Part shown: in pieces, positions 18,727 through 55,589 of the stretch
How the letters are laid out: the number at the start of each line of letters is the position of its first letter
How positions within the stretch are numbered: the stretch's first letter is position 1
NCBI GenBank assembly: GCA_002269645.1
Contig: NIVC01000390.1
Location: forward strand, 124,001 to 188,000
Reading direction: 5' to 3'
DNA: 64,000 bases
From: Macrostomum lignano
Lineage: Eukaryota
The notes under the pieces: model-generated
The model's database searches: none
Told to the model about the DNA's origin: nothing
The model's input: only the letters and a program-made list of their open reading frames with translations
Translations under genes and position numbers: made by a program

Positions 18727-19892
18727 TGAGTCTAATTTCTTGGAAACGAAATCTAATTAAACAAAATATTTAAAATATACCATTAGAACCCTAGAATAAA
18801 TTCACGTACATAATTATTACAGCATAAAGAATAGCATTTGATTTTACTTAAGTTTAATTAAAGAAACACAATCGCTTCAAATTCATAATTATCAAACCAT
18901 TAAAAAACCAAAAAATAAATCATTATATATTTTTTAAATATACACGATCAATCTAGTATAAATAGGAGCAGAGTTTGAGGAGAAGAGACCAACTCGTTCA
19001 CTTGCTATAAGCTTAAAAACGTGTTCACTGAAAATCGTTCTCAGATTCATAAGGTATCATGCAAATCATTTTGTAGTAAGAAGTGCTAAGAAGTATTCGG
19101 AGAAACTCGCTAAAGGAATCAGGAGTATATGCAAGGGAGTACATGCATTAGAAGTACATGCTAAAAGCAAACGCCGTGACCCTCTAATCTCGGTAACGCC
19201 CAGACTGGAGAATAGTATATAAACCAGTAAGCCCGCTCAGGCCAGAAGGAACATAGACGCTACCAGACTTATACAGAGACGCTACCAGATCTATGCCGAA
19301 GACACTACTAAAAGTATACTAAGAACGCTACCAGAACACTACCAGTACGCTACTAAGAACGCAAACCAGAACGCTACTAAGAACGCTATCAGAACGCTAC
19401 CAGAACGCTACAAGAACGCTACCAGAACGCTACCAGTACGTTACTAAGAACGCTACCAGAACGCTACCAGAACGCTACCAGAACGCTACCAGAACGCTAC
19501 TAAGAATGCTACCAGAACGCTACCAGAACGCTACCAGAACTCTACCAGAACGCTACCAGAACGCTACCAGAACGCTACTAAGAACGCTACCAGAACGCTA
19601 CCAGAACGCCACTAAGAACGCTACCAGAACGCTACCCAGCTTATACTAAGGCAGAAGTAACCCTAGGACAACTTAGTGGTTTACAGTGGAATTTAGATTA
19701 CCCATACGACAAACCTTTGGTGGCAGCTTTTAGAATTCGAAAAAGAGAGAAGTAAGGCCCTAGCACAGCTTGGTGGCACCAGTGTGAGTAACATTAAGAG
19801 ATGGAGGCAAACACTTTATCACAACTTTGGTGGCTCAGCGGTGGGATATTGTTAAGAGGGAAGCCTCTTACGCATATGTGTCACGGGTCTCA
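18727..19892 (+). mobile_element. Solo LTR C of the same gypsy lineage as elements A and B
   Basis: TGAG...CTCA ends with candidate TSD AATA; TATA box GTATAAATAGG near 18955; shared GTGACCCTCT, CCGCTCAGGC and ACGCTACC blocks; PBS-repeat array at 19660-19875. Exact ends are less certain than the identity. Confidence 0.75.
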
Positions 19893-27837: not shown

Positions 27838-28267
27838 GTAAGTTGCAGTTCATTTGTAGCCATTGTAGCTATGTACTGTAAAAACACATTGTACAGTATA
27901 AAATAAGTCTTGGTTAGTTACTAGCTACATGTATTAAGTCATAACAGTCATTTTTACGTGGTGCTTTCACAATCCCCAAATTTCTTGTAGCTCGTAAAAG
28001 CTCTTTCGATACAAATTACAACACAAATGGACGTTGCGCATACATTTCCGGAGGCTGCATCATAAATTAATTGCATTAAAATTTTTTGAATGTCAAGTTT
28101 TAGCCTCATTAAGTTGCATCACATAGAAGTTTGTGAATTTGGATTGGATGCTGAAGTTTGGGGATTGTGAATTTATGGGTCCCTATTAGTATTTCACAAC
28201 CCGGGTGTAATAGAGAAACATCTGATGTAATGTGAAACATCCCAATTTTTACTATTAATTTCCGTAG

Positions 28268-29099
28268 TGGCAGCATGGGCGAACACATGCAGCTGGTTCG
28301 AATTCGCAGCAATCGAGTCCAGGAGGACCTACTCAGCTTCCTCTTGTCCAGCGAATTCACACACATGCACCGCTCCCAGGTGATTCTGCAGCAATATATC
28401 GAACGACCGCTGCTAATTGACAAGCGCAAATTCGACATGCGCGTCTACATGCTTGTTGTGAATCCGAAGCGCGGCAGCGGAACGGGCGACAGGCCCAAAC
28501 AGTCCGGCTACTTCGCCTTCCATCATCCAGGCTTCATCCGGCTCTGCTCAGAGCCCTACGATCCCGAGCATGCCGACATCGCTGTGCACCTTACCAATCA
28601 GAGCATCCAAGCGAAAAAAGTGGACACTTTCCGACGCTTGAAAGAAGTGACGACTTGGTATCCGGATGAGTTAAACGATTATCTCAACAAGAGGCGACGC
28701 ACTAATTGCAAGGATTGGGCGAAGGACGTTCTGTACCCGAAGGTGGGCGCCATTCTCGGCTACATCGCGGCTGTGTATCGCACCCATATGGACGACCGAA
28801 ATTGTCGCACCAGCACTTTTCGCATCCTTGGCGTGGACCTATTGGTGGACGAAAAGCTCAGATTGTACTTGCTCGAATTCAACGAACTGCCAGCCTGGGG
28901 CCTGCAAACCTCCGTTCTTGTCAGCATCAAGCCGAACCTGTGGCTCGAGGCGATCTCACTAGTCAGCGAAGTAGCTGTGCGTTACAAGGCCTATTTGCCT
29001 ATTGACGATGAGCACTTGGTGACTAGGCAAAACTTCCGCCTAGCCTACACTTCTGAAGATGTTAATTTTGCAAGAAGAAACATCGCTGCCCTTTATTGA
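28268..29099 (+). CDS. TTLL10: TTLL10-like glycylase, terminal exon (catalytic core)
   Basis: QQYIERPLLIDKRKFDMRVY, HLTNQSIQ, DWAKDVL and GVDLLVD..LLEFN motifs follow the TTLL10 pattern. The joined CDS is 1452 bp (483 aa). Confidence 0.88.
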
Positions 29100-31766: not shown

Positions 31767-33665
31767 GTCTTTTAGAGTAGTTATACATTAACAGATTCTT
31801 GAATTGAATGCTATATTTCTAGATATAATTTTAATTTCCTCTAAATAAAATACAACCAATTAAAATGCAACACTGCAAAGGCAGCAGCAATGGCAAGGCC
31901 TAATATTAATATAGCTTAAAGTATAGCTCAAGACACTTCCCTCACAGTCAAAACACAAGTGGGCCTAACTTTGTAATGTGATGTTAGACCTTTGACAATA
32001 AAGAAGCAGAAATAGACCTAAAAATAATAAATAATATTGGCAATAATTAATAGATTTAATTATAGGCCCCTAGGCCTAATCAATGCAATTATATAATAAT
32101 ATTAATTAATAATTATTGTTGCAAATATTAGACTACTTTTAGGTAGGCCTTTGCACATCAGCACATGGCCTAAATCCTAATTATAAGTATAAATAGGCTG
32201 TAGTATACTTTACTAATAGCCTAGTATGGCCGTGTAGGAGGGGTAATTAAGCTAAGTTGGGAATCCTACAATTGCCCCCAAGTTGTGGTAGTGCTCTAAG
32301 GTTAAAAACTTTATCCTAATAGCTGACACCAAGTTGTTGTAGGTAATTCTTATGCTTATTCATAATTTCACTGCTGCTACCAAGTTGTACTGGGGTGAAA
32401 TTTGCTATAATTCTAGAATTTCATAAGATTAGCCATCAGATTTGTTATAAACTACTAAAATATGGTGTCACGGAATTAAGATTATGGGCTTTCACATAAG
32501 CATGGATCGCCCTGGTAGTGCACAGTGCCCGAGCGGCAAGACACTGGTTAGCTAGGGGAGAGAGGGTGACTAAGTCCTAAAGCAGTGCCCTTCAATGGAT
32601 CAAGGTTGCCCGAATGCCCGGTGAATTTCAGTTTCCTCTTATGGATTTGCTCTTGTCATATACAACTTTCCATTGGCTGTTCAGTTCAAATGGTTCTATT
32701 GGGATATTTCTCCCTCTCCAATGGGCTCTCTATGCCTTTACTGTTCATGGTTCCGCTATTGGTTTTTAGACTGATCGTCTTAAGCTTTTGGTAATTTCTA
32801 CCTAGCCAATGAGCATTTGCTCTTTATTCTTGACAAATAAGGAAGGCTTAAGTAAAATTCGCTTATTCAGTTTGTTAGGCAGATAGCGTTGAACCAAAAA
32901 CTCGGTTGCCTCTCTGGGCGCTGAATTCACGTCTATTTATACTAACCAAAAAGAGGGGGAGGGGGAGGAAGAACGTATTCAAACAAATATCTACCAAAAA
33001 TGCAGTCACTAACAAAAATGGCGGGGATTCAAAATAATCCCTTTCTCACTAGGTCTATTATAGGCCTACTATAATAATGGTATTGATAATTGATAATAAT
33101 TGATAATAATAAACTGATAATAATATATATAATAAATTATAATAAATAATAAATAATATATAAATTGATAATAATATAAAATGTAATTATACTCCTTAAT
33201 TTTTTGGCCCTATTGGAAATATAGAGAGCTTGCGTACACAGCAGCCATCCACCCAGTGTTTTAATTGCATGCACAGTAGCCAGCAGATTGGCAAATAGTG
33301 AATTGCAAATTGGACCTTTTCCCTCAAATCTGCACTTTGTTACTTATTGAACTTTTTAAATAATTTATTACTTGTTTTATCCCATGTTACCCATGTATAA
33401 TGCAATCTCAAATTAAGATGCAGCTGTTGTGCAAGCAATTAAAACACTGGGTGGACGGCTATTGTGCATGTAAGCTCTTTGTTTTAAATCAGTGTTAACC
33501 CTATTCATTAGAGCAAAAATTTAAGTTTAAGTATATAGATAATTAGATCCTTGACATTTAGCTACACAATATTATATTAGGCCTATAGGAACATATTTTC
33601 ATTGTTTATTAGCTTTATCTAGGCTTAACTATTTTTATTAGCTTTCTTATTTTTTTTAATATAAG
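31767..33665 (+). repeat. 1.9-kb genomic flank X, duplicated at 41837-43735 (offset 10070)
   Basis: Near-identical copies; about 4 substitutions noticed (e.g. CATGG/CGTGG, GCTTATTCAG/GCTTTTTTTG). Confidence 0.92.
32233..33048 (-). mobile_element. Solo LTR D (same lineage, older) inside flank X; second copy at 42303-43118
   Basis: Minus-strand GTATAAATAGAC TATA box, CCGCTCGGGC block and PBS-repeat array with 51,51,51,57-bp spacing. TSD not resolved, so ends are approximate. Confidence 0.7.
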
Positions 33666-34531
33666 TGAGACAGGCATTAATAATAGCTCTAATACTTTTA
33701 AATTTTACTCGTTTTATGTTTGCCTTTCTTAGAAAAACCTTTATTCAAATCTGCGCGAAATATTTGTTTGAATGTTGTGGTTTGCAAAAATATTTCTGCA
33801 ATTATTATTTTGTTTAAACTATAACGAATTTTGGGTATAAATAGACACGCTGAGCAGACTTGAGGAAGCAACCGTTTGCTGCCTCTCGGTTTTCGATAAG
33901 CAAATTTAGTTCGTTCTAAATATTGAAATCGCTTAAAGACTTAATCATTTCTTAGAGTATAAGAACCCCAATTGGGAGTATCAGAAACCGCTACAAGCGA
34001 GAAACCGCCTCAGGGCAGTAAATTGTAAATTCGCCTCAGGGCAGGAGAACCGCCTCATAACGAGAGAAGATCGCCTCAGGGCAGAGAAAGAGCATAAGCT
34101 GTGACCCTCTGATCCAGGGAACGCCCAGGACTGAGAGAATAATATTAGGGGAAGCATAGGAATAGAATAGACAGTGCTATTAGACCGCTCAGGCTAGAAA
34201 GTACAATAGAAGTACATACGCTACCAATAGAAGTACATACGCTACCGATAGAAGTACATGCGCTACCAGTAGAAAGACAATTAATAACCAGTAGAATTAT
34301 TAAGGAGAAATAGCTTTATTACAACTTTGGGTGGCATTTAGGATTCTCAGTGTACAGGGAAGAGCACTGTGACAACTTGGTTACAGCGGTAGGATTTTGT
34401 ATTGTACGGGAAACCCCTAGCACAACTTGGTGACATAACGGTGGAATTCTTATAGAGAGCCAAAAGGCCTGTAACAACTTTGGTGGCAGCTAGTAAGGCT
34501 AGCAAAAGGAATAATTAAGAGCCCTACGACA
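33666..34531 (+). repeat. Element A 5' LTR
   Basis: TG..CA ends, preceded by TAAG; TATA box GGTATAAATAG near 33835; followed by the PBS. Confidence 0.9.
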
Positions 34532-34536
34532 GCTTT

Positions 34537-34547
34537 TGGTGGCAGCG
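34537..34547 (+). promoter_or_regulatory. Element A primer-binding site, 11-nt match to the tRNA-Leu(AAG/TAG) 3' end
   Basis: TGGTGGCAGCG lies 5 nt after the LTR end. Confidence 0.8.
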
Positions 34548-40208: not shown

Positions 40209-40605
40209 TGAAGCCGAATCCATGTAAAAATGTGTAAATAGACTCAATATAAAACTCATAAAAAGTAAAAATCATAAAATTTATAAAAATACAAAAATAT
40301 TAAATTTGCATATACAGTATTAAATAAAAATGTTATGCGCATTACTAACAGTAGAGTATAGAGAATTGTGCAGGTATTGTTCGAAACTCGTTCCGCATAA
40401 AAATCCTAGCAACGCTTAGTAACGGTGTGAGCCAATGAGCGAGCTCGTTAGAAATTTGCTAAACCCCCTCTCGTGCGAACACGAAGATGCGGTCCAGTTT
40501 TTTCAGATATACAATTGAACTCCCTGCAGCTCCATAGACCCGTCGATCACACCTCTCCAAGTCAATCTTGAGTTAATACCGCAAGAATATATATTGCGAG
40601 CTAGA

Positions 40606-41643
40606 ATGGACGACGACTTAGATAATTTCTTAAAAGATTTGCTGGACGACTCCATGGAGGAATTAGCCGTCGCCGCCGCAGCAGACCAGCCAGCTGAACA
40701 GCCAGCTGAGCCTCCAGCGCAGCCTCCAGCGCCGCCAGTTCGACCTCCAGACCAGCCGGCTGAGCAGCCAGCTGAGCAGCCAGCCGAGCCGCCAGCTGAG
40801 TCGCCAGTACCATCAGCTCGGCCGCCAGCTTCATCAGCAAATCAGCCTGCAGCGACGTCCGCGCCATCAACCAGCCGATCGGCGCCTGACATTGAGGAGG
40901 CGCCATTGCGAGCTCCGACGAGACCAAGAGCCCTGTCAGGAACAGGCAAGCGACCGCCAGCCGCTGAACAATCATCAATTCCAGCCAAGAGGGCCGCTCT
41001 TCTGGATGCTCAAGCAAAAGCGCCAATCAAGTCTTTGGTCGTAAGACCATGCGCCGGAGAAGAGCGGCGCACCCTTCAGCTGGCCGCGCCTCCACAGCAG
41101 TCAGCAATGAGACGTCAGCCGAGACGTCCACCACAGCCGCCGCGCCATTCGTCGCCAAGACGTCTGCCGCAGCCGTCGAACCAGCCGCAGCCGCCGAGTC
41201 GGCCGCCACAGCAGCAGCAGCCGCCTCCGCCACATCAGCCAGCAACACCCAGGCAGCCACTGCAGCCTGTGCCTAATCCGCCGCTACAGCCAAGGCGAGA
41301 GTACCATGAAACGGCGCTAGCCCTTATCGACATGCACGGCGTTACGCTCGAACGAGTTGTGCACGGCATCAGGGTTTATCTGGAAAGGATAGCCCACCTG
41401 CGCCTCGACCAGGCGTTGCCACAGCGGGCTTACCTGTGGCCAAGCCTGAGGCAGCTGAGAACCCGACTTTCGCGAGAGGAAGCCGTCGCTCTGCTGCGAT
41501 ACGCCATCGACCGATTTCGAGACGATCTGGATGCCAGCCGACAGCCAATTCAGAGACAGCTTGTCAACATTGAGGTGAGATGGGTTTTCACCCAGCTCGG
41601 ATGGCTCGAGTACAGAGACCTCCCGCGAAATTGCTACTTCTAA
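40606..41643 (+). CDS. Element A ORF3, 345-aa non-env accessory protein
   Basis: ATG at 40606; homologous to ORF3 of element B in three separate blocks. Confidence 0.85.
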   Translation: MDDDLDNFLKDLLDDSMEELAVAAAADQPAEQPAEPPAQPPAPPVRPPDQPAEQPAEQPAEPPAESPVPSARPPASSANQPAATSAPSTSRSAPDIEEAPLRAPTRPRALSGTGKRPPAAEQSSIPAKRAALLDAQAKAPIKSLVVRPCAGEERRTLQLAAPPQQSAMRRQPRRPPQPPRHSSPRRLPQPSNQPQPPSRPPQQQQPPPPHQPATPRQPLQPVPNPPLQPRREYHETALALIDMHGVTLERVVHGIRVYLERIAHLRLDQALPQRAYLWPSLRQLRTRLSREEAVALLRYAIDRFRDDLDASRQPIQRQLVNIEVRWVFTQLGWLEYRDLPRNCYF

Positions 41644-43735
41644 ATGACAAGGGTTACTCTGAATCGAACATTTGCAAAAGTACTGATATTATTTTTGTTT
41701 TTGCTTTATTACTAGCTTAGTAGTATTTGTAGCATTTAGTAGCTAAATTCTTCTTTCAATTATGCTTATAGGAAATTATTACTAGCTTACATTTTTTATA
41801 TTTTTCGTTACCTGTATTGCCTTTTTTGCCTTTTTTGTCTTTTAGAGTAGTTATACATTAACAGATTCTTGAATTGAATGCTATATTTCTAGATATAATT
41901 TTAATTTCCTCTAAATAAAATACAACCAATTAAAATGCAACACTGCAAAGGCAGCAGCAATGGCAAGGCCTAATATTAATATAGCTTAAAGTATAGCTCA
42001 AGACACTTCCCTCACAGTCAAAACACAAGTGGGCCTAACTTTGTAATGTGATGTTAGACCTTTGACAATAAAGAAGCAGAAATAGACCTAAAAATAATAA
42101 ATAATATTGGCAATAATTAATAGATTTAATTATAGGCCCCTAGGCCTAATCAATGCAATTATATAATAATATTAATTAATAATTATTGTTGCAAATATTA
42201 GACTACTTTTAGGTAGGCCTTTGCACATCAGCACATGGCCTAAATCCTAATTATAAGTATAAATAGGCTGTAGTATACTTTACTAATAGCCTAGTATGGC
42301 CGTGTAGGAGGGGTAATTAAGCTAAGTTGGGAATCCTACAATTGCCCCCAAGTTGTGGTAGTGCTCTAAGGTTAAAAACTTTATCCTAATAGCTGACACC
42401 AAGTTGTTGTAGGTAATTCTTATGCTTATTCATAATTTCACTGCTGCTACCAAGTTGTACTGGGGTGAAATTTGCTATAATTCTAGAATTTCATAAGATT
42501 AGCCATCAGATTTGTTATAAACTACTAAAATATGGTGTCACGGAATTAAGATTATGGGCTTTCACATAAGCATGGATCGCCCTGGTAGTGCACAGTGCCC
42601 GAGCGGCAAGACACTGGTTAGCTAGGGGAGAGAGGGTGACTAAGTCCTAAAGCAGTGCCCTTCAATGGATCAAGGTTGCCCGAATGCCCGGTGAATTTCA
42701 GTTTCCTCTTATGGATTTGCTCTTGTCATATACAACTTTCCATTGGCTGTTCAGTTCAAATGGTTCTATTGGGATATTTCTCCCTCTCCAATGGGCTCTC
42801 TATGCCTTTACTGTTCGTGGTTCCGCTATTGGTTTTTAGACTGATCGTCTTAAGCTTTTGGTAATTTCTACCTAGCCAATGAGCATTTGCTCTTTATTCT
42901 TGACAAATAAGGAAGGCTTAAGTAAAATTCGCTTTTTTTGTTTGTTAGGCAGATAGCGTTGAACCAAAAACTCGGTTGCCTCTCTGGGCGCTGAATTCAC
43001 GTCTATTTATACTAACCAAAAAGAGGGGGAGGGGGAGGAAGAACGTATTCAAACAAATATCTACCAAAAATGCAGTCACTAACAAAAATGGCGGGGATTC
43101 AAAATAATCCCTTTCTCACTAGGTCTATTATAGGCCTACTATAATAATGGTATTGATAATTGATAATAATTGATAATAATAAACTGATAATAATATATAT
43201 AATAAATTATAATAAATAATAAATAATATATAAATTGATAATAATATAAAATGTAATTATACTCCTTAATTTTTTGGCCCTATTGGAAATATAGAGAGCT
43301 TGCGTACACAGCAGCCATCCACCCAGTGTTTTAATTGCATGCACAGTAGCCAGCAGATTGGCAAATAGTGAATTGCAAATTGGACCTTTTCCCTCAAATC
43401 TGCACTTTGTTACTTATTGAACTTTTTAAATAATTTATTACTTGTTTTATCCCATGTTACCCATGTATAATGCAATCTCAAATTAAGATGCAGCTGTTGT
43501 GCAAGCAATTAAAACACTGGGTGGACGGCTATTGTGCATGTAAGCTCTTTGTTTTAAATCAGTGTTAACCCTATTCATTAGAGCAAAAATTTAAGTTTAA
43601 GTATATAGATAATTAGATCCTTGACATTTAGCTACACAATATTATATTAGGCCTATAGGAACATATTTTCATTGTTTATTAGCTTTATCTAGGCTTAACT
43701 ATTTTTATTAGCTTTCTTATTTTTTTTAATATAAG

Positions 43736-44601
43736 TGAGACAGGCATTAATAATAGCTCTAATACTTTTAAATTTTACTCGTTTTATGTTTGCCTTTCTT
43801 AGAAAAACCTTTATTCAAATCTGCGCGAAATATTTGTTTGAATGTTGTGGTTTGCAAAAATATTTCTGCAATTATTATTTTGTTTAAACTATAACGAATT
43901 TTGGGTATAAATAGACACGCTGAGCAGACTTGAGGAAGCAACCGTTTGCTGCCTCTCGGTTTTCGATAAGCAAATTTAGTTCGTTCTAAATATTGAAATC
44001 GCTTAAAGACTTAATCATTTCTTAGAGTATAAGAACCCCAATTGGGAGTATCAGAAACCGCTACAAGCGAGAAACCGCCTCAGGGCAGTAAATTGTAAAT
44101 TCGCCTCAGGGCAGGAGAACCGCCTCATAACGAGAGAAGATCGCCTCAGGGCAGAGAAAGAGCATAAGCTGTGACCCTCTGATCCAGGGAACGCCCAGGA
44201 CTGAGAGAATAATATTAGGGGAAGCATAGGAATAGAATAGACAGTGCTATTAGACCGCTCAGGCTAGAAAGTACAATAGAAGTACATACGCTACCAATAG
44301 AAGTACATACGCTACCGATAGAAGTACATGCGCTACCAGTAGAAAGACAATTAATAACCAGTAGAATTATTAAGGAGAAATAGCTTTATTACAACTTTGG
44401 GTGGCATTTAGGATTCTCAGTGTACAGGGAAGAGCACTGTGACAACTTGGTTACAGCGGTAGGATTTTGTATTGTACGGGAAACCCCTAGCACAACTTGG
44501 TGACATAACGGTGGAATTCTTATAGAGAGCCAAAAGGCCTGTAACAACTTTGGTGGCAGCTAGTAAGGCTAGCAAAAGGAATAATTAAGAGCCCTACGAC
44601 A
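43736..44601 (+). repeat. Element A 3' LTR, flanked by TAAG on both sides
   Basis: Copy of 33666-34531. Confidence 0.9.
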
Positions 44602-45196
44602 TAAGCTTTTAAAACCTATAGATTTTGAACCCACTGAATTCTAATCCCTGAAACTATTTTTGCAATTTTTTTAGTTTGAAGTCAATATGATTTATACTCA
44701 AACAAAAATTTAATAATTAGGCCCTAAGATAGAGCCTTAGAGTTGAATTTGAAAAATGGGATAAAATGATATTAAATTGTTTTTTGCTTTAATGTTTTAA
44801 GATTTCTATTGATATTGTCAACTAAGGTAAATATTATCAAAATAGGCATAAGCCTGACACTGACAGCTGACTAAATTTTTTCTTATATTATCCCTTCTTT
44901 TTATTTCATCTCTTTTCTCTAATCTCTTTTTTGTTCTTTGCTTTTTCTTTGTCATAGACTTTGTTTTCTCTTCTCTTTTCCTTTGTCTTTTCTTTTTTCT
45001 AATCTCTTCTCTTTATTCTTACTCTTATATCTCCTCATTCTTCTCTCTTTTCTTCTCTCTCTTCTCTTCTCTCTGCTATTTACTTTTTCCCTTCTCTTCT
45101 CCCTTTCTCCTCCCTTTTTTCTTCTTATCTCTACTTTCTTATCTTTTATCTTTCCTATCTATTCTCCCTTTTCCTCATATCTCTCATCTTCCATCT

Positions 45197-45983: not shown

Positions 45984-46292
45984 ATCTGTCTTTTTTCTCT
46001 ACTCTTTCTCTTTCCTTTCTTCTTCTTTCCCCTATTTAGGAAAAATTTCTAAAAATTTAATAGCCTAAAAATTTTCTATAGTAAGTTTAAGGTGGGTGGA
46101 AAATTTGGTGTAATTTGGTTGAGCAGTTTGGGAGTCTAAAGCAAACAAATTTGTACATAGACAATGCATATACACATATACAAACAAAGTATGCAAGCAT
46201 ACCAATTGATTTTCTCATTGATATAAATTATAGTTTCTATAGAAAATGATAATAGAAGCTATAATTCCAATAGAGCTATTTTTATTATAGAT

Positions 46293-47124
46293 TGTGACAG
46301 GCCTTTTGGCTCTGTCTTTCTAAACTTCTAACTATTAGTGTTTATTAAATATCCTACGAGCTGCCACCAAAGTTGTGGTAGGGGTATTCCCGTACGGTAC
46401 AAAATCCTACCGCTGTAACCAAAGTTGTGACAAGGCTTACTTCTGTCCCTACAAATTATCCCTCTATTGCCACCAAGTTGTAACAGGGGTTATTTCTGTT
46501 TGCCAACTACAGTTATCCTGATTATACTTGTTTTTACTCCCTAACTATTTCTTAGAATTTCATTTAAATATTTCTGGTAGCGTTCTTAGTAGCGTTTCTG
46601 GTAGCGTTCTGGTAGCTTATGGCCTGCTTTCTGGTAGCGTTCTGGTAGCTTATGGCCTGAGCGGTCTAGTACTGATATATGTATTAGTGAATAGTCCTAA
46701 TCGGGCGTTCACCGAGACTAGAGGGTCACGGCGCCTCTCTTGGTATATCTCCAAGAATTAGTCCCAATTCCCTTCTCTTAGCAAATTTCTTAGAATCGTT
46801 TCACAGGTTTTGCAAATAAATAAGTCGCTATTTAGCTCAAAGACTTTGAAATGGTTTAGATTGAACTGCTTATTCTGTTCGCAATTATTTGCTCACGAGT
46901 AAAAGACAGTTAGAGTATATTTGTCGCGAAACCGCTCCTATATATAGTGATTTTCCCCACATACAATTAAAACAAAAAAATAATTCTCCAATTTATTTCG
47001 CGCATTAAAACAAACTATTATTTGGCGTTCGCGTAGATTCAGTTTCTAAGAAAGATTCGAATATACAGTTATTACATTGAAAGAACATTCGAGTATACTA
47101 TGATAAAGGCATAGCACTAGTACA
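46293..47124 (-). repeat. Element B 3' LTR
   Basis: TGTACTA...TGTCACA on the minus strand. Confidence 0.93.
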
Positions 47125-47137
47125 ACTTTCCTCCTCT
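47125..47137 (-). promoter_or_regulatory. Element B polypurine tract
   Basis: AGAGGAGGAAAGT immediately before the 3' LTR TG. Confidence 0.88.
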
Positions 47138-47410: not shown

Positions 47411-48286
47411 TCAGATAAACATGCAGGGCTCCGGGAGGTCGCGATAATAGGGCCAGCCGACTTGAGCGAAAAACCATCGGTACTCTTCGTCGAGGACCGT
47501 CAGCGCTGGCGGCGGGTTGGCTCTTATAGCTCGCTGGAGGCGATAGGCGACGTCCTGGAGAACAGCGACAGCTTCCTGGTAACTGAATTGATCCCTCAGA
47601 AACTTCAGGTGTGTCCAAATTTGCGAGCATTGGGGGTAGCGCTGTCGGCTGTCGGATCGGTGGTACGCTACTTTCAGTGCGTATTGCTCAATGTGGAAGC
47701 GTAGCTTTTCCACCTCTGCTCCGCGAGTCTCCACAAGTTCTCGGACGATGCGATGAAAATCTCTCTGCGAATTCGATTGCTGCTGGCTCGGCTGTAGTGC
47801 TGATGGCTGGCTAGACTGCTGCGCTGATTGCAGGCTCGGCTGCAGCGCTGACTGCTGCGCTGATTGCAGGCTCGGCTGCGACGCTGGCTGCTGAGCTGGC
47901 GGTGTCGCAGCTGTCGATTTCTTCTGCCGTGGTGCCGGGGTCTTTCTCGATGATGGGGCAGCTGGCGGTGACACCAACTGCTGCGTTCGGCTTGATGTCG
48001 ACGATCCTGGCGTGGCCTTGACAACATAGGAGCGCACGGGCGCAGCTGCCTGTGCTGCCACCAGGGCGGCGCGCTTCTGCTCGGGGCCTTCGACCCTCAT
48101 TTGGCGGCAAGGCGATGAAGCTGGCGATGATGTTCTTGGCCGTTTGCTGGATACACCAGGCGCCTTTGGACGTGTTGCACATCGAAGCGGTGCCTCATTT
48201 TCATCGGTGTTGGGCGCTGGCTGGGGCTCCATATCGTCTGACAGATTGCCAATTAACTCGTCCAAGATATCAATAGAGTTGTTCAT
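47411..48286 (-). CDS. Element B ORF3, 291-aa non-env accessory protein
   Basis: Open ORF downstream of pol, homologous to A ORF3; TATAAATA about 85 bp upstream. Confidence 0.88.
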   Translation of the reverse strand: MNNSIDILDELIGNLSDDMEPQPAPNTDENEAPLRCATRPKAPGVSSKRPRTSSPASSPCRQMRVEGPEQKRAALVAAQAAAPVRSYVVKATPGSSTSSRTQQLVSPPAAPSSRKTPAPRQKKSTAATPPAQQPASQPSLQSAQQSALQPSLQSAQQSSQPSALQPSQQQSNSQRDFHRIVRELVETRGAEVEKLRFHIEQYALKVAYHRSDSRQRYPQCSQIWTHLKFLRDQFSYQEAVAVLQDVAYRLQRAIRANPPPALTVLDEEYRWFFAQVGWPYYRDLPEPCMFI

Positions 48287-48685
48287 TTTGATTTCTCTGC
48301 GAATGGCTCTTAGAATAGAAAGGAAGCTAGCAGTGAGCTATGGGATCTGTGGGGCCTGCGGGTGCTCGTATTTATAGGCTGGCGGGCCGAAAAACTGGAC
48401 CTCTTCGAAGCACTCCCCTCGCGCGTGGGGCGGGGCATGCCAGATTTGACAGATTTGACAACTAAATTTTTATGGATTTTCTATTTCTTTTTATAACTTT
48501 TTTATTTTTTGATAGATTTTCTTGAGTAAAGTATCAAATTAAAGATCGCATTTTGTAGATTAATATGGTATTTACAGATTCGCTCTATGTACAATATGTT
48601 AAATTTTATAAGCAGATAAGTAATTCTAATACGGAATTTTAACTATTTAACACTGTTTCTTATAGGAAATTGCTTACGTCATGAT

Positions 48686-51600
48686 TTAAGGTGCTAAATA
48701 TTTCGCGTAGCGCCTTCGGGGCACAAATCCTGTCGCGCCTTCTCTTTCTCTCCTTCGCTGAGTCATCCTAAAGTTATACCTATTCTCTGGCTGAACTCGT
48801 TCCTCCTCTAACTCTAATGCTCCTTCTTCTTCTTCTGATGGCTCATCTGAGTCAGTCGCTCTCTCTGTATTTTCACTGTTTACTTCTTCATTTCCTTCGT
48901 TTTCACTCTGCGAATTCGGATCTGCGAATACTCTCCATTGAATTCTGTTTTCTTCGTCTGAGCTTTCCTCCTCTAAAATTTGAACTTCTGGAATTCTAAC
49001 TTCTTTTTGTCTATGGCAAATTCTTTTCTTCGGCTTCGGCTGTTCTTTCTTCTTAGTTGGCACTGGTGCTGGTTTTAAATTATTATTAATTTCCTCTGGT
49101 AAATCAATTTCGGATTTCGGCACTGGAGTCAGATTATTTCTATGTACTAATAGTTTTTCTCCGCTCCTTTCGCCATTGATTTCTCTTTGCACACGGAAAA
49201 CTGTATCAGATATCTTCGCAAGAACTCGATAGGCTGCTCTTTTCTTTCGATGAAATTTGTGGCTCTCCTCTTGGTGAAGTTGAGGATTGTTGATGAGAGC
49301 GAGACAGCCAACTGGCACATTTTTAGGCTGACGATTCTCAACTTCGTCCTCTTGCCTTTTCTCTCGCACCTTTTCGAGTTGTCTTCGCACAATTGCTTTT
49401 GTCTCCTCGATTCTCTTCGCATGATCCAGCACATAGCTAGGATAGTCTCGGTATAGTCTTGGCCTTTTCACAATGCTATCTATTGGCAAATCTGCTTCTC
49501 TCCCGAATAGTAAGTAGTGTGGTGTGAACCCAGTAGTTTGATTAACACTGGTTCGCACAGCTACCAGAGCGGCGGGTATGAGCAGATCCCAATCTGAATG
49601 ATCCTTTTCAATCAAACAGGTTACAATCGATTTAATTTGCTTGTTAAATCTTTCGACAAGCCCGTTACTCTGAGCATGGTAAGGCGTAGTGCAAGTATGC
49701 TTAATGCCGTATAGGGTACAGAATGCCTGAAATTGGTGACTTACAAAAGTCTTGCCATTATCAGTGTGTATCCATTGACACTGGCCATACTCGCTGAAAA
49801 TTCTCTCTTGTATCGTTTTGATAACAGTCGCGGATTTCTGATTCCGAACCGGAAAAGCGAATGGGAACTTTGTTGTACTATCTACGACAGTAAGTACATA
49901 TCGGTGTCCTCTTCTGCTTTCCTTTGATATTGGACCGATCAAATCTATGTGCAGCCGATGAAATGGCTCGCATATCGGAAAGGTCTGCACCGGTGCTCGT
50001 ACTTTATTTCCGCTTTTACTTTCCAGACACGGGATGCATTCTGCGATGTACTTTTCAACTGCAGTCACTAACCCCGGCCTCCAGAATCGGTCTCGGACTC
50101 GCTGTAGCGTCTTGTCCCGACCTAGGTGGCCTGCTAGCGGACTGTCATGCAGCTCTTTGAATACATCTTTCTCAATCCTTTCTGGCAATACTACTTTCCG
50201 TTTACCGTCTTCACTGACTGTCAGCATTTCATCTTCGATTTTCATCTGCTCGTAGAACTTAACCATCTTCTTCAACTCTCCGGATGCATTTTCTGGCAAC
50301 TTCGGCTCACGCACTTTCTTCTGCTTCCAGTCCATCAAGGTTCTTATAGAAGGATCAGCATGCTGCGCTGAAGTCAGCTGCTCTTTCTTCAATGGAACCG
50401 AGAGGTAATCTGTCAGAAGCTTTCTGCACACTGTCTCTTCCTCTTCGAAATAGTCTCTTGCATCTTCATAGATGTCATCATTATCTTCGAACTGATCACT
50501 GGCATCTTCGTATTCATCATCTGCGAATTCGTCTTCGGAATCTGATTCATACTCTTCTGTGAAGTCGGTCTGGCAACTCTGATCTTTCACGCTGTTAGTC
50601 ACGACTTGTTTCACAGCGCTGGTTTCTATTGTCATCTTAGGAATTTCGGCCTCATTCTCTTTGATCTTAGCATCTTTCTGTTCAACTGGTGGTTCCGAGG
50701 GTCGCCGTGACAATCCATCTGCGTTGGAATGTTTGGCTCCACTGCGGTGCTCAATATCGTATTGAAACTCACTCAGTCTTTCAATCCATCTTCCGAGAAT
50801 TCCTTGGGCTTCGGTCTGGCGCAGTAACCATAGAATTGCCTTGTGGTCTGTGCGGGCCAGAAACCTTTTGCCAATTAGGTAAAATCGGAAGTGTTTCATG
50901 CCATCTACTAGCGCTAATAGCTCTTTTCTGGTAATCGGATATCTTTTCTCAGACTCTTTCATTGCTCTGCTGAAGTAAGCAATGGGTCTTTCAACCCCGT
51001 CCGATTGTATTTGACCCAGGCAAGCACCAATTCGGTCTTCGCTTGCGTCGGTGTCTAATACCATTCGAACATTCTCGTTCTCTGAGAATTCTGGGTACGC
51101 GAGTACTTCGGTCGATGTCATTCTCTGCTTCAACTGCTGGAAAGCCTCGTCATGTTTCTTGGTCCACTTTTCCCTAAAGTTTTGAATACCTTTCTTAGTT
51201 AATTGAAATAGCGGATGCGCTGCCTCTGCGTAATTCTTTACAAATCTGCAGTAGTAGTTACACAACCCCAAGAAGCTTCGCAGTTCTTTGACCTCTTTCG
51301 GCGTAGGCCATGACTGTATCGCTTCGATCTTAGCTGGGTCTGTTCTAATCCCTTCTCTTCCTACGATATGCCCTAAGTACTTTAGCTCTTTCTGAAACAA
51401 GTTGCACTTTTTTGGTCTTAATTTTAGTCCTGCTGAGATTAGTCTTTGAAATACTTCTTGCAGATGACCGAGATGATCTTCGAATTTCTCTGAGTATGTC
51501 ACAATATCATCTATGTACGACATTGCGAATTTGTGCTGTATTCCCATCAGCACCAAATTCATGAGTCTCTGGAATGTACCAGGAGCGTTAGACAAGCCCT

Positions 51601-53197
51601 GTGCCATGACCTGATATTCGAACTGGCCTCTGGTAAGGGTGGAAAAGGCTGTCATAAATTTGTGCTCCTCTTTGATAGGTACCTGCCAGTATCCAGAGTT
51701 TAAATCTAGACTACTGAAGTACTTGCTTCCAGATAACTGAGCGAAAGTCTCTTGTATGTTCGGTAATGGATATGGGTAATAGTTCACTCTCGAATTCAGG
51801 ACCCTGAAGTCACTGACGATTCTTATGGATCCATCCTTCTTAGGAACTATCACTAGCGGCGTCGAATAAGTACTATAGCACGGTCGGATCAGGTTCTTAG
51901 CAAGCATGTCGTCAAGTTGCTCATCTACTTGCTTTTGCAGATGTGGTGGAATTCTGCGTGTTGGAATCCTGACCGGTGTGGTATCTTTTAGAGATATTTC
52001 ATGAGTCACAAGATGGGTGAGACCCATGTCTTGGTTGGTCTGCGAAAATGCTTCCTTGTTCTTCTTTAGCAAATCGATCACTAGTCCTTTCTGTTCTGAT
52101 GTTAGCTCTTCTCCTAAATCGATCTCGTTTATCCAGCTGTACTCACTCTCTTCACTCTTCACTGTCCTAATTGTATCATCTGAACTGGCTTGACCTTTGC
52201 TGTTAATAGAGTAGGCCAGGCCTCCTGGCTTCAAGGGTTTGGCCACTCCAATCAGCGTAGATCTTGTCAGTCTGATATCGTCATTCTGTCGATTGATTAT
52301 TTCCACTACTCCTGTTCCATCGTTCATGGTCACTAGAGTAGGAATCATCTCTAAGGAATTTCTCTTCGTAGTCACTTGGCCTCCAATGGTGTCAATGACC
52401 ATTGGCGTTCCATAGTTGGCTTCTGATCCTTTAGTCATTCTAATTGGAATTCGAAGAGCGCTATTCGCTGGTATAGTCACGCTGTTATGGCTGTAGATTC
52501 GGCAAACCCGTACGGGTAATTTTGTAAACTGAATTGGGATGCAGGTTCCTTCTTTTAATACAAGCATTCCTCTGGAAAGGCTGATGCTGTCGCAGAAGTT
52601 CATGAAGAACTCCATCCCGAGTATGTCGTCACACTCGTGATTGCACAGCAGGAACTCTGTCTCAATCTCTATCTCTCCGAATCGTATTTTCGTTCTGACT
52701 TCTCCTTCAATTCGCACACTTGATCCGTCAAACGTAGTCACTCTTCGAGTAGTCAACTCAATTTCATCACTTCTGAACATCTTTTTCCAAGTACTCTTGC
52801 TTAGGAAATTATGTCCAGCTCCTGTGTCTAGCAAGAAGTAGACCTTTCGGTTTCTTAGCATTCCATTGACGACTGCTTCTCGTCCTTTTCTCTCCGTATC
52901 TTCTTCGAATTCTCTCTTCGAATGCTCATTCGGAATTACTGTACTTTGTACTTTATTATTCGGCCTACTGTGGCTAGCAGACGCATGACTAGGTGCAAGC
53001 GGCATATGTACACGAGGTGCAAAATTTTTATTTGGTTTTCTGTGAAATTTATTGAATTCGGCATGCGTTCTGCTGTTACTATACTGTCTGGCATTACTTC
53101 GATACGCATTATTTACAAATTCAGAGGCCTGAAATTCGCGATAATTGTTGCTAGAGGGACGTGGCCTCGCAAAGCGGCCCTCGCTACTCAGTTTCCC
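48686..53197 (-). CDS. pol: Element B Pol (PR-RT-RH-IN), translated by -1 frameshift from gag
   Basis: The -1 frame is open from GGGAAAC (53191-53197) into the 1439-aa ORF; LLDTGAG, YIDD, RNase H and integrase motifs are intact. Confidence 0.95.
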   Translation of the reverse strand, partial: GKLSSEGRFARPRPSSNNYREFQASEFVNNAYRSNARQYSNSRTHAEFNKFHRKPNKNFAPRVHMPLAPSHASASHSRPNNKVQSTVIPNEHSKREFEEDTERKGREAVVNGMLRNRKVYFLLDTGAGHNFLSKSTWKKMFRSDEIELTTRRVTTFDGSSVRIEGEVRTKIRFGEIEIETEFLLCNHECDDILGMEFFMNFCDSISLSRGMLVLKEGTCIPIQFTKLPVRVCRIYSHNSVTIPANSALRIPIRMTKGSEANYGTPMVIDTIGGQVTTKRNSLEMIPTLVTMNDGTGVVEIINRQNDDIRLTRSTLIGVAKPLKPGGLAYSINSKGQASSDDTIRTVKSEESEYSWINEIDLGEELTSEQKGLVIDLLKKNKEAFSQTNQDMGLTHLVTHEISLKDTTPVRIPTRRIPPHLQKQVDEQLDDMLAKNLIRPCYSTYSTPLVIVPKKDGSIRIVSDFRVLNSRVNYYPYPLPNIQETFAQLSGSKYFSSLDLNSGYWQVPIKEEHKFMTAFSTLTRGQFEYQVMAQGLSNAPGTFQRLMNLVLMGIQHKFAMSYIDDIVTYSEKFEDHLGHLQEVFQRLISAGLKLRPKKCNLFQKELKYLGHIVGREGIRTDPAKIEAIQSWPTPKEVKELRSFLGLCNYYCRFVKNYAEAAHPLFQLTKKGIQNFREKWTKKHDEAFQQLKQRMTSTEVLAYPEFSENENVRMVLDTDASEDRIGACLGQIQSDGVERPIAYFSRAMKESEKRYPITRKELLALVDGMKHFRFYLIGKRFLARTDHKAILWLLRQTEAQGILGRWIERLSEFQYDIEHRSGAKHSNADGLSRRPSEPPVEQKDAKIKENEAEIPKMTIETSAVKQVVTNSVKDQSCQTDFTEEYESDSEDEFADDEYEDASDQFEDNDDIYEDARDYFEEEETVCRKLLTDYLSVPLKKEQLTSAQHADPSIRTLMDWKQKKVREPKLPENASGELKKMVKFYEQMKIEDEMLTVSEDGKRKVVLPERIEKDVFKELHDSPLAGHLGRDKTLQRVRDRFWRPGLVTAVEKYIAECIPCLESKSGNKVRAPVQTFPICEPFHRLHIDLIGPISKESRRGHRYVLTVVDSTTKFPFAFPVRNQKSATVIKTIQERIFSEYGQCQWIHTDNGKTFVSHQFQAFCTLYGIKHTCTTPYHAQSNGLVERFNKQIKSIVTCLIEKDHSDWDLLIPAALVAVRTSVNQTTGFTPHYLLFGREADLPIDSIVKRPRLYRDYPSYVLDHAKRIEETKAIVRRQLEKVREKRQEDEVENRQPKNVPVGCLALINNPQLHQEESHKFHRKKRAAYRVLAKISDTVFRVQREINGERSGEKLLVHRNNLTPVPKSEIDLPEEINNNLKPAPVPTKKKEQPKPKKRICHRQKEVRIPEVQILEEESSDEENRIQWRVFADPNSQSENEGNEEVNSENTERATDSDEPSEEEEGALELEEERVQPENRYNFRMTQRRREREGATGFVPRRRYAKYLAP

Positions 53198-54192
53198 TGC
53201 TGCTTCTGGTAGTCCATCACTCGCTGACCGTTTGGCCTAGCGCTCTGGCAATTCCTCGCCATGTGGCCAAGCTTCCCGCAATTGTAGCAGGCTCGAGGCT
53301 GCTGCTGTTGCTGTGGCTGCCTGTTGAACTGAGGCTGACCGCGCCATACTGGCTGCTGCTGCTGCTGCTGCTGCGGCCGATATCTCGGCTGCTGCGGCGG
53401 TCCAGCGACCTGAGCGTACGTTTGATATTGATTCTGCGGATGATACTGCTGACGGCTAGCTCTCTTCTCTTCCATCAGCTCCTCAATCGCCTTCTTCTGT
53501 TGCTCTAACTCTGCTCTCTGCTTCTTGATGATGTCCTCAAGCTTCTCCTGATCTGCCTTCTGCTCACTCTCGCCTTCGCCTTTGGCCATTCTCATGTTGA
53601 AATTCTTGTGAGACATGTTCCACGCAGCCTCCATCCTTCTTAGCATTCTTCTAGCCTCTTGTAAATTGCCTGGCTGCGCAAAGATTAGCTTCTCACGGGT
53701 CTCTGACGGAATTCTGATTCCCTTGATGAATTGCTCAACAATTTCTTCTTCCCTTTGCTCAACCGTCATATTCGGAAATGCACGCGATGCCAGCTCGATC
53801 AAACAGTCTGCGAAAGTCTCTACAGGCTCATTTCTGCCTTGCATTCTTCCACGAAACTCCTCTCTGAATTCTGCGGAACTACCGATTCTTCCGAATCGCT
53901 CAATCAGTCGCTCTTTGAACTCTTCGTATTCAAGATCCTCGGGCAGATTTAGGCGCTGTACCGCTGCGAATGCAGTGGACAGGTCCAGATTAGCTAGCAA
54001 TTCCTGCTTCCTATGTTCCTCATCTATCCCTTCTACTTCACAGCGCTGATCGAAGGCTGTTAGCCAGATCCGAATGTCTTGCGTAGGTGTGAATTTCTGA
54101 ATCTTAACGTGTCTCATCGGCCCTATCTCTAGTCGGTTTCGCAATTCTTCTGCCAGCATGGCGATGGCATCATTAGCCTGATTCTGATTCAT
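53188..54192 (-). CDS. gag: Element B Gag with CCHC zinc knuckle
   Basis: CYNCGKLGHMARNC; highly similar to A Gag. Confidence 0.95.
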   Translation of the reverse strand: MNQNQANDAIAMLAEELRNRLEIGPMRHVKIQKFTPTQDIRIWLTAFDQRCEVEGIDEEHRKQELLANLDLSTAFAAVQRLNLPEDLEYEEFKERLIERFGRIGSSAEFREEFRGRMQGRNEPVETFADCLIELASRAFPNMTVEQREEEIVEQFIKGIRIPSETREKLIFAQPGNLQEARRMLRRMEAAWNMSHKNFNMRMAKGEGESEQKADQEKLEDIIKKQRAELEQQKKAIEELMEEKRASRQQYHPQNQYQTYAQVAGPPQQPRYRPQQQQQQQPVWRGQPQFNRQPQQQQQPRACYNCGKLGHMARNCQSARPNGQRVMDYQKQQGN

Positions 54193-54327
54193 CTTCTCTC
54201 TATGAAAAACTTTTCAAATTATTCTTCGGAATTCTTCTGAATCTAGTTTTGAGAGTTCGCGCCGTTTCTCTAATCCTTATCGCTGCCACCAGCTGTGACA
54301 GGCCTTTTGGCTCTGTCTTTCTGAACA

Positions 54328-54345
54328 ATCCCACCGCTGCCACCA
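54328..54345 (-). promoter_or_regulatory. Element B primer-binding site, perfect 18-nt complement of the tRNA-Leu(AAG) 3' end
   Basis: TGGTGGCAGCGGTGGGAT lies 2 nt after the LTR end and complements ...ATCCCACCGCTGCCA-CCA (tRNA recalled from the metazoan consensus). Confidence 0.88.
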
Positions 54346-54347
54346 GC

Positions 54348-55180
54348 TGTGACAGGCCTTTTGGCTCTGTCTTTCTAAACTTCTAACTATTAGTGTTTAT
54401 TAAATATCCTACGAGCTGCCACCAAAGTTGTGGTAGGGGTATTCCCGTACGGTACAAAATCCTACCGCTGTAACCAAAGTTGTGACAAGGCTTACTTCTG
54501 TCCCTACAAATTATCCCTCTATTGCCACCAAGTTGTAACAGGGGTTATTTCTGTTTGCCAACTACAGTTATCCTGATTATACTTGTTTTTACTCCCTAAC
54601 TATTTCTTAGAATTTCATTTAAATATTTCTGGGTAGCGTTCTTAGTAGCGTTTCTGGTAGCGTTCTGGTAGCTTATGGCCTGCTTTCTGGTAGCGTTCTG
54701 GTAGCTTATGGCCTGAGCGGTCTAGTACTGATATATGTATTAGTGAATAGTCCTAATCGGGCGTTCACCGAGACTAGAGGGTCACGGCGCCTCTCTTGGT
54801 ATATCTCCAAGAATTAGTCCCAATTCCCTTCTCTTAGCAAATTTCTTAGAATCGTTTCACAGGTTTTGCAAATAAATAAGTCGCTATTTAGCTCAAAGAC
54901 TTTGAAATGGTTTAGATTGAACTGCTTATTCTGTTCGCAATTATTTGCTCACGAGTAAAAGACAGTTAGAGTATATTTGTCGCGAAACCGCTCCTATATA
55001 TAGTGATTTTCCCCACATACAATTAAAACAAAAAAATAATTCTCCAATTTATTTCGCGCATTAAAACAAACTATTATTTGGCGTTCGCGTAGATTCAGTT
55101 TCTAAGAAAGATTCGAATATACAGTTATTACATTGAAAGAACATTCGAGTATACTATGATAAAGGCATAGCACTAGTACA
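54348..55180 (-). repeat. Element B 5' LTR
   Basis: Copy of 46293-47124; TATA box CACTATATATAGGAG. Confidence 0.93.
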
Positions 55181-55589
55181 AGATCTAGGCCTATTCATTC
55201 AATTTAATATTCTTAATATATAAATTTATTTATAAGTATATAAAACAATAATGAACCTTTAAAACAATCAAACCTAAGCATAAATCCATAGTTATAAAAA
55301 TAGTATAATATGTACTAAAATAATTTTTTTAGAAAAAAATCAATATGGTATATATATAATATTGGGTTGTAACAAATTTTCAGCATTTTAATACTTAATT
55401 TTGAATTCATTTTTCTAGTCACTTAGTAGTATTTTTCTAGGATAAAGTCATTATCCTAATCAGTGATCAATAAGATTATGGTGCCTTTTTAAACTCTAGT
55501 AGCCTTAGTAACAATTGAAGTATTTTTTGAGCTAGGCTTTTATCTCATCATTGTATTTGAATGTCATATCATTTAATAACTCTATACAG

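What the first reader, a model, noticed from the sequence alone, without database searches (positions are those of the whole stretch)
54281..54376. Snapshot of a new array unit being written from the tRNA primer in intact element B
Seen: a perfect 42-bp direct repeat (54281-54322 and 54335-54376, period 54) with a 12-bp unique middle. On the element strand this reads: LTR end, GC, perfect TGGTGGCAGCGGTGGGAT(T), a few nt, a duplicate of the last 29 nt of U5, GC, then the older imperfect PBS TGGTGGCAGCGATAAGGAT. That imperfect PBS and its downstream AGAGAAACGGCGCGAA match the sole working PBS of element A. The extra unit is absent from the 3' LTR. Known: plus-strand strong-stop DNA copies the 3' 18 nt of the primer tRNA and stops at m1A58; the tRNA match here ends at positions 59/58. 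Inference: a mis-targeted second strand transfer inserted a tRNA-templated repeat plus a U5 spacer. Priming from the downstream PBS in the next cycle would fix it in both LTRs, giving a concrete growth mechanism for the arrays.
Basis: partly seen in the sequence, partly recalled or inferred. Interest (0 to 1): 0.85.

Follow-up and report, generated by a model that had tools for sequence, protein, structure and literature searches.

The report
Retrotransposon ends grow by swapped modules
A young jumping-gene copy in a flatworm carries one extra "repeat-end plus tRNA primer site" unit at only one of its two ends, and sister copies show the same kind of unit absent, at one end, or at both ends, which likely catches these arrays growing by borrowing units from related copies during reverse transcription.

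Summary
The 42-bp repeat is real. It lies just behind the 5' LTR of a young Ty3/gypsy element (LTRs differ by one indel, 4-bp TSD, empty allele in the assembly). The first PBS is the exact complement of host tRNA-Leu (18 nt); the second is the family's imperfect working PBS. The '12-bp unique middle' is not unique: it is the start of an older array module (X) found at 27 other places. The extra unit is best read as tRNA copy + start of module X + own LTR end.

Of 51 assessable family copies, 3 have 5'-only extra units, all led by a tRNA-perfect PBS. The other two complete trios (absent / 5'-only / both LTRs), and their units are pre-existing modules from sibling arrays. B's own unit is in no LTR. 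Units are therefore likely captured between co-packaged RNAs, with the PBS refreshed from tRNA, rather than written anew. The direction (growth versus upstream priming) is not proven, and the read check was inconclusive. Ten literature searches found no such arrays; this scan noted similar arrays in two other genomes.

The parts
54348..55180 (-). 5' LTR of element B (833 bp, TG...CA); its 3' end holds an array of [LTR-end-like ..CA + 2-5 nt + PBS-like + spacer] units
   Evidence: one indel and no mismatch against the 3' LTR
54513..54530 (-). internal PBS-like site 1, tRNA match broken after 8 nt; also in 3' LTR (46458-46475)
54459..54476 (-). internal PBS-like site 2, broken after 4 nt; also in 3' LTR (46404-46421)
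54406..54424 (-). internal PBS-like site 3, broken after 10 nt; also in 3' LTR (46351-46369)
54328..54345 (-). tRNA-Leu-perfect PBS (18 nt), 2 nt behind the LTR end; first part of the 5'-only extra unit
54323..54327 (-). first 5 nt of the spacer; equal to the start of module X (two letters diagnostic for X against B's own U5)
54292..54322 (-). exact duplicate of B's last 29 LTR bases plus GC (seven letters diagnostic for B's own U5 against the X copy compared)
54273..54291 (-). imperfect working-type PBS (first 11 nt match tRNA-Leu), followed by the leader; the commonest working PBS of the family (27 of 50)
53188..54213 (-). gag frame (stop to stop), zinc knuckle
48686..53236 (-). pol frame: protease, RT, RNase H, integrase (Ty3/gypsy order)
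47411..48337 (-). third ORF, Pro/Gln/Ala-rich, no Pfam match
47125..47137 (-). polypurine tract
46293..47124 (-). 3' LTR (832 bp), lacks the extra unit
55181..55184 (.). 4-bp target-site duplication (other copy 46289-46292); an empty allele with one copy exists (L193)

Best explanation
The extra unit is a three-part joint (an exact copy of the tRNA-Leu 3' end, the start of a sibling element's array module, and B's own LTR end with its old primer site) that was likely made in one round of reverse transcription on two co-packaged sibling RNAs. Inferred steps: the minus strand ran past the old PBS into 31 nt of B-type U5, switched in register to the homologous terminal module X of a sibling RNA and copied up to X's PBS-like site. 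Plus-strand strong-stop DNA (B's LTR + GC + 18-nt tRNA copy) then annealed there, helped by the similarity of B's LTR end to the unit that precedes X. This leaves the unit behind the 5' LTR only, with a refreshed PBS. Priming at the downstream PBS in a later round would copy such a unit into both LTRs, where the now internal PBS likely decays in its first 11 nt. Shown: the anatomy, the tRNA match, the donor modules, the three states. Inferred: the order of events and the direction.
For: B's 36-nt spacer aligns without gaps to module X and to B's own LTR end: X-type at positions 1 and 5, own-type from position 7. X occupies the same slot in relatives whose leader/gag is 99% identical to B's (L082, L101). 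Same anatomy, clearer, in L083: perfect PBS + two modules identical to those of L136 (which carry a broken PBS there) + about 8-10 nt of the recipient's own LTR end + old PBS; the unit upstream in L136 resembles the recipient's LTR end. Third case C391 (L146+L162): one module, found with broken PBS in 4 other arrays and with perfect PBS where it stands behind a different upstream unit (12 of 14 hits inspected). 3 of 51 assessable copies are 5'-only and all 3 start with a perfect PBS and end with an imperfect one. All three have a TSD. Both-LTR versions: L079, L141, L148; no-unit versions: most of L073-L112, and L178. L079's upstream 330 nt are identical to at least 13 no-unit copies, so the gain is derived. 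Working PBSs: 18 of 60 perfect, the rest mostly three fixed variants, as expected if tRNA copying overwrites the PBS in some progeny (PMC7472051, passages). Module X follows 12 different upstream tails in 28 loci.
Against: In B only two letters favour X, and one of them could be the tRNA position-58 copy. B's exact unit occurs nowhere else in the assembly, so no both-LTR descendant is seen. L083 and L079 share 600 nt of leader/gag but differ upstream in the LTR, so L083 is not simply L079's parent. In C391 the module also carries a perfect PBS in L206/L207, so refreshing need not be invoked there. C511 has a 3' LTR ending one unit earlier than the array of C224, which fits upstream priming. 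One copy (C3171) has an extra unit in the 3' LTR only. No intermediate was observed; counts are small and not deduplicated for haplotype copies.
Confidence: 0.55

Rival explanations
1. Multi-round route. The chimeric unit first arose inside both LTRs of a parent by an ordinary in-register template switch during minus strong-stop synthesis. B then arose by priming at the upstream PBS, or by pairing with such a parent, which shortened the LTRs and refreshed that PBS. B would be a snapshot of shrinkage or refresh, not growth.
For: Uses only homologous switches. C511's 3' LTR ends one unit earlier than C224's array. Related LTRs end at earlier unit ends (L003/L004, L005, L010, L030). L083 may descend from an L079-like RNA.
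Against: Needs an unseen parent: 1 of 28 X-pattern hits has B's version. The upstream site would have had to prime while still broken, yet only 15 of 150 internal junction contexts keep the first 11 nt against 25 of 26 working ones (contexts are related and some internal ones are false hits).
Confidence: 0.27
2. One reading: the tRNA-tailed plus strand slipped back on B's own U5 and duplicated it, with no second element involved.
For: 31 of 36 spacer letters are an exact own-LTR duplicate. Whole-unit self-duplications with perfect PBS exist: L138/L155/L158 (one locus), L128, L129.
Against: Needs a substitution that happens to equal module X and a junction that happens to give X's exact length. 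In the other two 5'-only cases the spacers are foreign modules.
Confidence: 0.1
3. DNA-level unequal exchange or gene conversion after integration put the unit in.
For: The family is numerous and repetitive; C511 and C3171 have U5 arrays that differ between their two LTRs.
Against: The insertion is very young (one indel between LTRs, empty allele present). It does not explain why all 3 cases lie exactly behind the 5' LTR and begin with a tRNA-perfect site that the L136 donor lacks.
Confidence: 0.05
4. Assembly artefact.
For: No contig from four public runs was listed that spans the junction exactly (short contigs, list cut).
Against: The unit is a mosaic with a tRNA-perfect site rather than a plain tandem copy, and the same anatomy recurs at two other loci with other sequences.
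Confidence: 0.03

Closest known systems
Asymmetric PBS inheritance / PBS reversion by tRNA copying (retroviruses; ETn, MusD, IAP)
   Same: Plus-strand PBS is a tRNA copy, minus-strand PBS is the genomic one; families keep a common mismatched PBS beside perfect ones (PMC7472051, passages seen). Here 18 of 60 working PBSs are perfect.
   Different: Described for one PBS. Here refreshed sites are moved into the LTR as members of an array of 2-6 units.
Aberrant second-strand transfer in HIV-1
   Same: The tRNA-tailed plus strand lands at a wrong place on the minus strand (PMC12657518, passages seen).
   Different: There the tRNA copy reads through by 7-54 nt, lands downstream and gives defective deleted proviruses. 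Here the copy stops at 18-19 nt, sequence is gained, and the products are integrated with TSDs and apparently propagate.
Partial PBS duplication of HIV-1 MAL-type isolates; dual-PBS HIV-1 (Li et al. 1997)
   Same: A second PBS-like sequence next to the PBS (PMC3185550, passage seen; Li 1997 seen only as a title in the reference list of PMC11181671).
   Different: One fixed 23-nt insertion downstream of the PBS, or a culture-derived virus; no LTR end duplicated, no array, no exchange of modules.
Copy-choice recombination between co-packaged RNAs
   Same: Template switches between two packaged RNAs give recombinants, insertions and duplications (PMC3187697, passages seen).
   Different: Here the repeated PBS and LTR-end similarity give many alternative registers at the very end of U5, so whole units are gained, lost and reordered.
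Drosophila Gypsy two PBSs / Ty3 bipartite PBS
   Same: Ty3/gypsy elements with more than one tRNA-binding site and an 11-nt 5' PBS (PMC1635307, passages seen).
   Different: The second site lies near the RNA 3' end and pairs with another part of the tRNA; not tandem copies of the same site.

Membership tests
Ty3/gypsy LTR retrotransposon (Metaviridae) | pol order protease-RT-RNase H-integrase behind gag | tested here: met
Ty3/gypsy LTR retrotransposon (Metaviridae) | direct LTRs TG...CA, PPT, target-site duplication | tested here: met
Ty3/gypsy LTR retrotransposon (Metaviridae) | PBS complementary to a host tRNA 3' end | tested here: met
   (tRNA-Leu AAG/TAG)
Ty3/gypsy LTR retrotransposon (Metaviridae) | clade placement by RT tree; presence or absence of env | not tested
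   No tree built. Third ORF has no Pfam match; the atlas search did not complete.
PBS refresh by plus-strand tRNA copying | perfect and genomic-variant PBS coexist among near-identical copies; perfect match ends at 18 nt | tested here: met
   18 of 60 perfect
HIV-type aberrant second-strand transfer with tRNA read-through | tRNA sequence continues beyond position 58 | tested here: not met
   Match ends at 18-19 nt; the next letter differs from the tRNA gene
HIV-type aberrant second-strand transfer with tRNA read-through | junction formed during reverse transcription | not testable with these tools
   needs unintegrated cDNA
CRISPR-like repeat-spacer memory array | spacers acquired from foreign sequence | tested here: not met
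   In all 3 5'-only cases the spacers come from own or sibling LTR arrays
CRISPR-like repeat-spacer memory array | polarised addition at one end, older repeats more decayed | tested here: inconclusive
   New units lie at the PBS end in 3 of 3 cases, but modules also appear reordered
CRISPR-like repeat-spacer memory array | processing into guide RNAs | not tested
   no small-RNA data laid

The most novel reading that the evidence does not exclude
These flatworm retrotransposons keep a shared, shuffled library of alternative 'integrase end + primer site' cassettes in their LTRs. Each replication round can add a cassette from a sibling, rewrite its primer site from the tRNA and later disable it. 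Selection (escape from or decoying of tRNA-Leu 3' fragments, or swapping of integrase-recognition ends between autonomous and non-autonomous partners) would maintain this, and the arrays would record which lineages were packaged together.
Probability: 0.2. Interest if true: 0.85.

Novelty: new variant of a known kind. Interest (0 to 1): 0.64.

Why it matters
LTR ends and primer sites are usually treated as fixed, single and highly constrained. Here they behave as exchangeable modules: 330 nt of LTR can be identical between copies whose arrays share no full unit (B and L080). A predicted intermediate (5'-only, tRNA-refreshed) sits in the genome next to its before and after states. This gives a testable route by which LTRs lengthen and by which subfamilies exchange ends, a natural record of co-packaging, and a system for testing the priming-versus-tRNA-fragment trade-off. 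It also warns that LTR/PBS annotation and LTR-age dating go wrong in such families.

Tried and rejected
Reads: only short Logan contigs; none listed spans the junction exactly, so inconclusive; no RNA holder listed on record. RNA fold of array plus leader: z -1.9, weak centroid, not used. L113+114 looked like a 5'-only case with an unrefreshed PBS but was dropped: no TSD, and its 3' flank resembles an inverted piece of the array. L086, L111, L116+115 (3' LTR interrupted or cut) and L077, L078, L089, L097, C1833-upstream (no separate 3' LTR, or tandem copies sharing one) were dropped from the state count: 9 of 60 in all. L137/139/140/147 are chance matches with no array. For 6 of 10 perfect-internal-PBS loci followed up no second LTR lay within the fetched 10 kb. 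The Fisher p-value is not used because contexts are related. The apparent constancy of X's spacer against its variable PBS is biased: the search pattern fixed the spacer. tRNA read-through rejected (see membership). Ten paper searches: searches gave 0 papers; two searches gave one listing each, not read and not on such arrays by title; some searches gave the papers cited. One paper looked up by DOI was not held. Atlas search of ORF3 not answered. Supplements were not read.

Full report
Observation. The two 42-mers at 54281-54322 and 54335-54376 are identical and cannot be extended; 60 shuffles of the surrounding kilobase gave at most 12 bp. They lie at the 5' LTR/leader junction of a minus-strand Ty3/gypsy element: gag with zinc knuckle, pol with protease, RT, RNase H and integrase, and a third ORF without Pfam match. 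The LTRs (54348-55180, 46293-47124) differ by one indel, a 4-bp TSD flanks them, and another contig holds the empty site (L193), so the insertion is young. The RT region is 100% identical to a protein that its source labels Macrostomum lignano. The LTR's 3' end is an array: three PBS-like sites, each preceded by an LTR-end-like '..CA' and followed by a spacer, present in both LTRs. The extra 54-nt unit is behind the 5' LTR only.

The tRNA match. A pattern for the tRNA 3' arm found 12 places; 8 of 8 scanned are tRNA-Leu AAG or TAG genes. Their 3' end plus CCA is the exact complement of B's first PBS over 18 nt; a 19th letter also fits, the 20th does not. That plus-strand DNA copies the primer tRNA while the minus strand keeps the genomic PBS is stated in PMC7472051 (passages and figure legend seen); the m1A58 stop in PMC12657518 (passages seen). 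In the family, 13 of 50 working PBSs and 5 of 10 are perfect; the rest are mostly three fixed variants that keep the first 11-13 nt, on otherwise near-identical elements. This is the pattern expected from occasional overwriting by the tRNA copy (inference).

The middle is not unique. A pattern for the PBS tail and spacer start matched 28 places, 27 of them outside B. They belong to one module, X, of the family's arrays, which in L007, L008 and L009 sits in both LTRs in the same slot as B's extra unit. B's 36-nt spacer aligns without gaps both to X and to B's own LTR end; positions 1 and 5 follow X, and all seven diagnostic positions from 7 on follow B's own end. Only B has this chimera (1 of 28). 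The support for X inside B is thin (two letters and the exact length), but the next cases are clearer.

Three states. Leader patterns gave 50 + 10 elements. All were fetched or lie in the window; 51 had an assessable 3' LTR end, 9 were dropped (listed under Tried and rejected); at least two pairs are haplotype copies of one insertion. 47 have matching LTR ends, 3 have 5'-only extra units, 1 has an extra unit in the 3' LTR only. The three are B, L083 and C391; each has a TSD, starts with a perfect PBS and ends with an imperfect working-type PBS. Trio 1: many no-unit copies; L083 with two extra units 5'-only; L079 with the same two in both, 100% identical LTRs. Both modules occur in the same order in L136, an LTR of another subfamily, there with a broken first PBS and a different tail; in L083 the last 8-10 nt are the recipient's own LTR end, and the unit before the modules in L136 resembles that end. 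L079's upstream 330 nt are identical to at least 13 no-unit copies. Trio 2: L178 without the unit, C391 5'-only, L141 and L148 in both LTRs. That module has 14 matches; of 12 inspected, 4 carry a broken PBS and 8 a perfect one, the latter behind two different upstream units. B's own unit has no both-LTR form in the assembly.

Array behaviour. Related LTRs end at different unit ends. Module X follows 12 different upstream tails in 28 loci. B and L080 are identical over 330 nt upstream of the array but carry different arrays. 25 of 26 distinct working junction contexts match the tRNA for at least 11 nt from the start, against 15 of 150 internal ones (related sequences, some false hits), so internal sites mostly lose the priming-critical part. 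A second family (5 loci chosen from the listing) has arrays with perfect PBSs inside both LTRs and variable unit tails, and one locus has the same unit three times, so self-duplication of whole units also happens.

Mechanism. Most likely (0.55) the tRNA-tailed plus strand annealed at an internal junction of a minus strand that had run past the old PBS, through a stub of own U5, and onto a co-packaged sibling's array; downstream priming in a later round would fix such units in both LTRs. Template switching between co-packaged RNAs is established (PMC3187697, passages seen). The main rival (0.27) is that the unit first entered both LTRs by a switch during strong-stop synthesis and that B results from upstream priming. 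C511, a single integration whose 3' LTR ends one unit earlier than C224's array and whose two U5 arrays differ, suggests that such events occur, and L083 and L079 share their leader but not their upstream LTR, so direction cannot be read from them. Public short-read contigs neither confirmed nor contradicted the junction.

What is known. Each step has a precedent: PBS reversion, aberrant second-strand transfer with tRNA inserts in HIV-1 (PMC12657518), a partial PBS duplication in HIV-1 MAL (PMC3185550), a dual-PBS HIV-1 (title only, in PMC11181671), and mismatched PBSs favoured under tRNA-fragment silencing (PMC7472051). Ten searches found no report of multi-unit LTR-end/PBS arrays or of module exchange; the library lacks most subscription papers, so absence is not established. 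This scan noted similar arrays in two other genomes (unchecked notes); none on this genome or sequence.

Verdict. A real feature, partly misread: the primer site is probably written from the tRNA, the spacer is borrowed. New variant of a known kind; interest 0.64, resting on two complete three-state series and traceable donor modules.

Noticed in passing
window 47411-48337 (-) and 40519-41643 (+): Both elements carry a third, Pro/Gln/Ala-rich ORF behind pol with similar C-terminal parts and no Pfam match; role unknown.
   Followed up: partly
window 31767-34540 and about 41837-44610: The direct duplication around element A (period about 10,070) is about 2.8 kb, longer than LTRs of A-type relatives (0.8-1.1 kb), and includes a minus-strand LTR-end array of another subfamily at about 32250-32410.
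   Followed up: partly
window 18950-19880 (+): A further LTR of the family with an expanded 11-bp repeat (28 copies) and a four-unit array of decayed PBS-like sites.
   Followed up: partly
L128-L132, L061-L064: A second tRNA-Leu-primed LTR family has arrays whose units share their 5' part but differ strongly in the last 15-20 nt (the integrase end); 333 genomic matches to the PBS-plus-2 pattern.
   Followed up: partly
L131+L188 (G000:C511) and L187+L125+L126 (G000:C3171): Single integrations with TSD whose two LTRs differ in their terminal units, although U5 is normally copied once.
   Followed up: partly
L074, L075, L076, L080, L084 and others: About half of the family copies are short (LTR period about 4.3 kb instead of 8 kb), likely non-autonomous partners sharing LTRs and arrays.
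   Followed up: no
L077/L078, L097/L098, L180/L181: Tandem elements sharing a middle LTR.
   Followed up: no
window 28236-29099 (+): Host gene exon of the tubulin-tyrosine ligase family.
   Followed up: no
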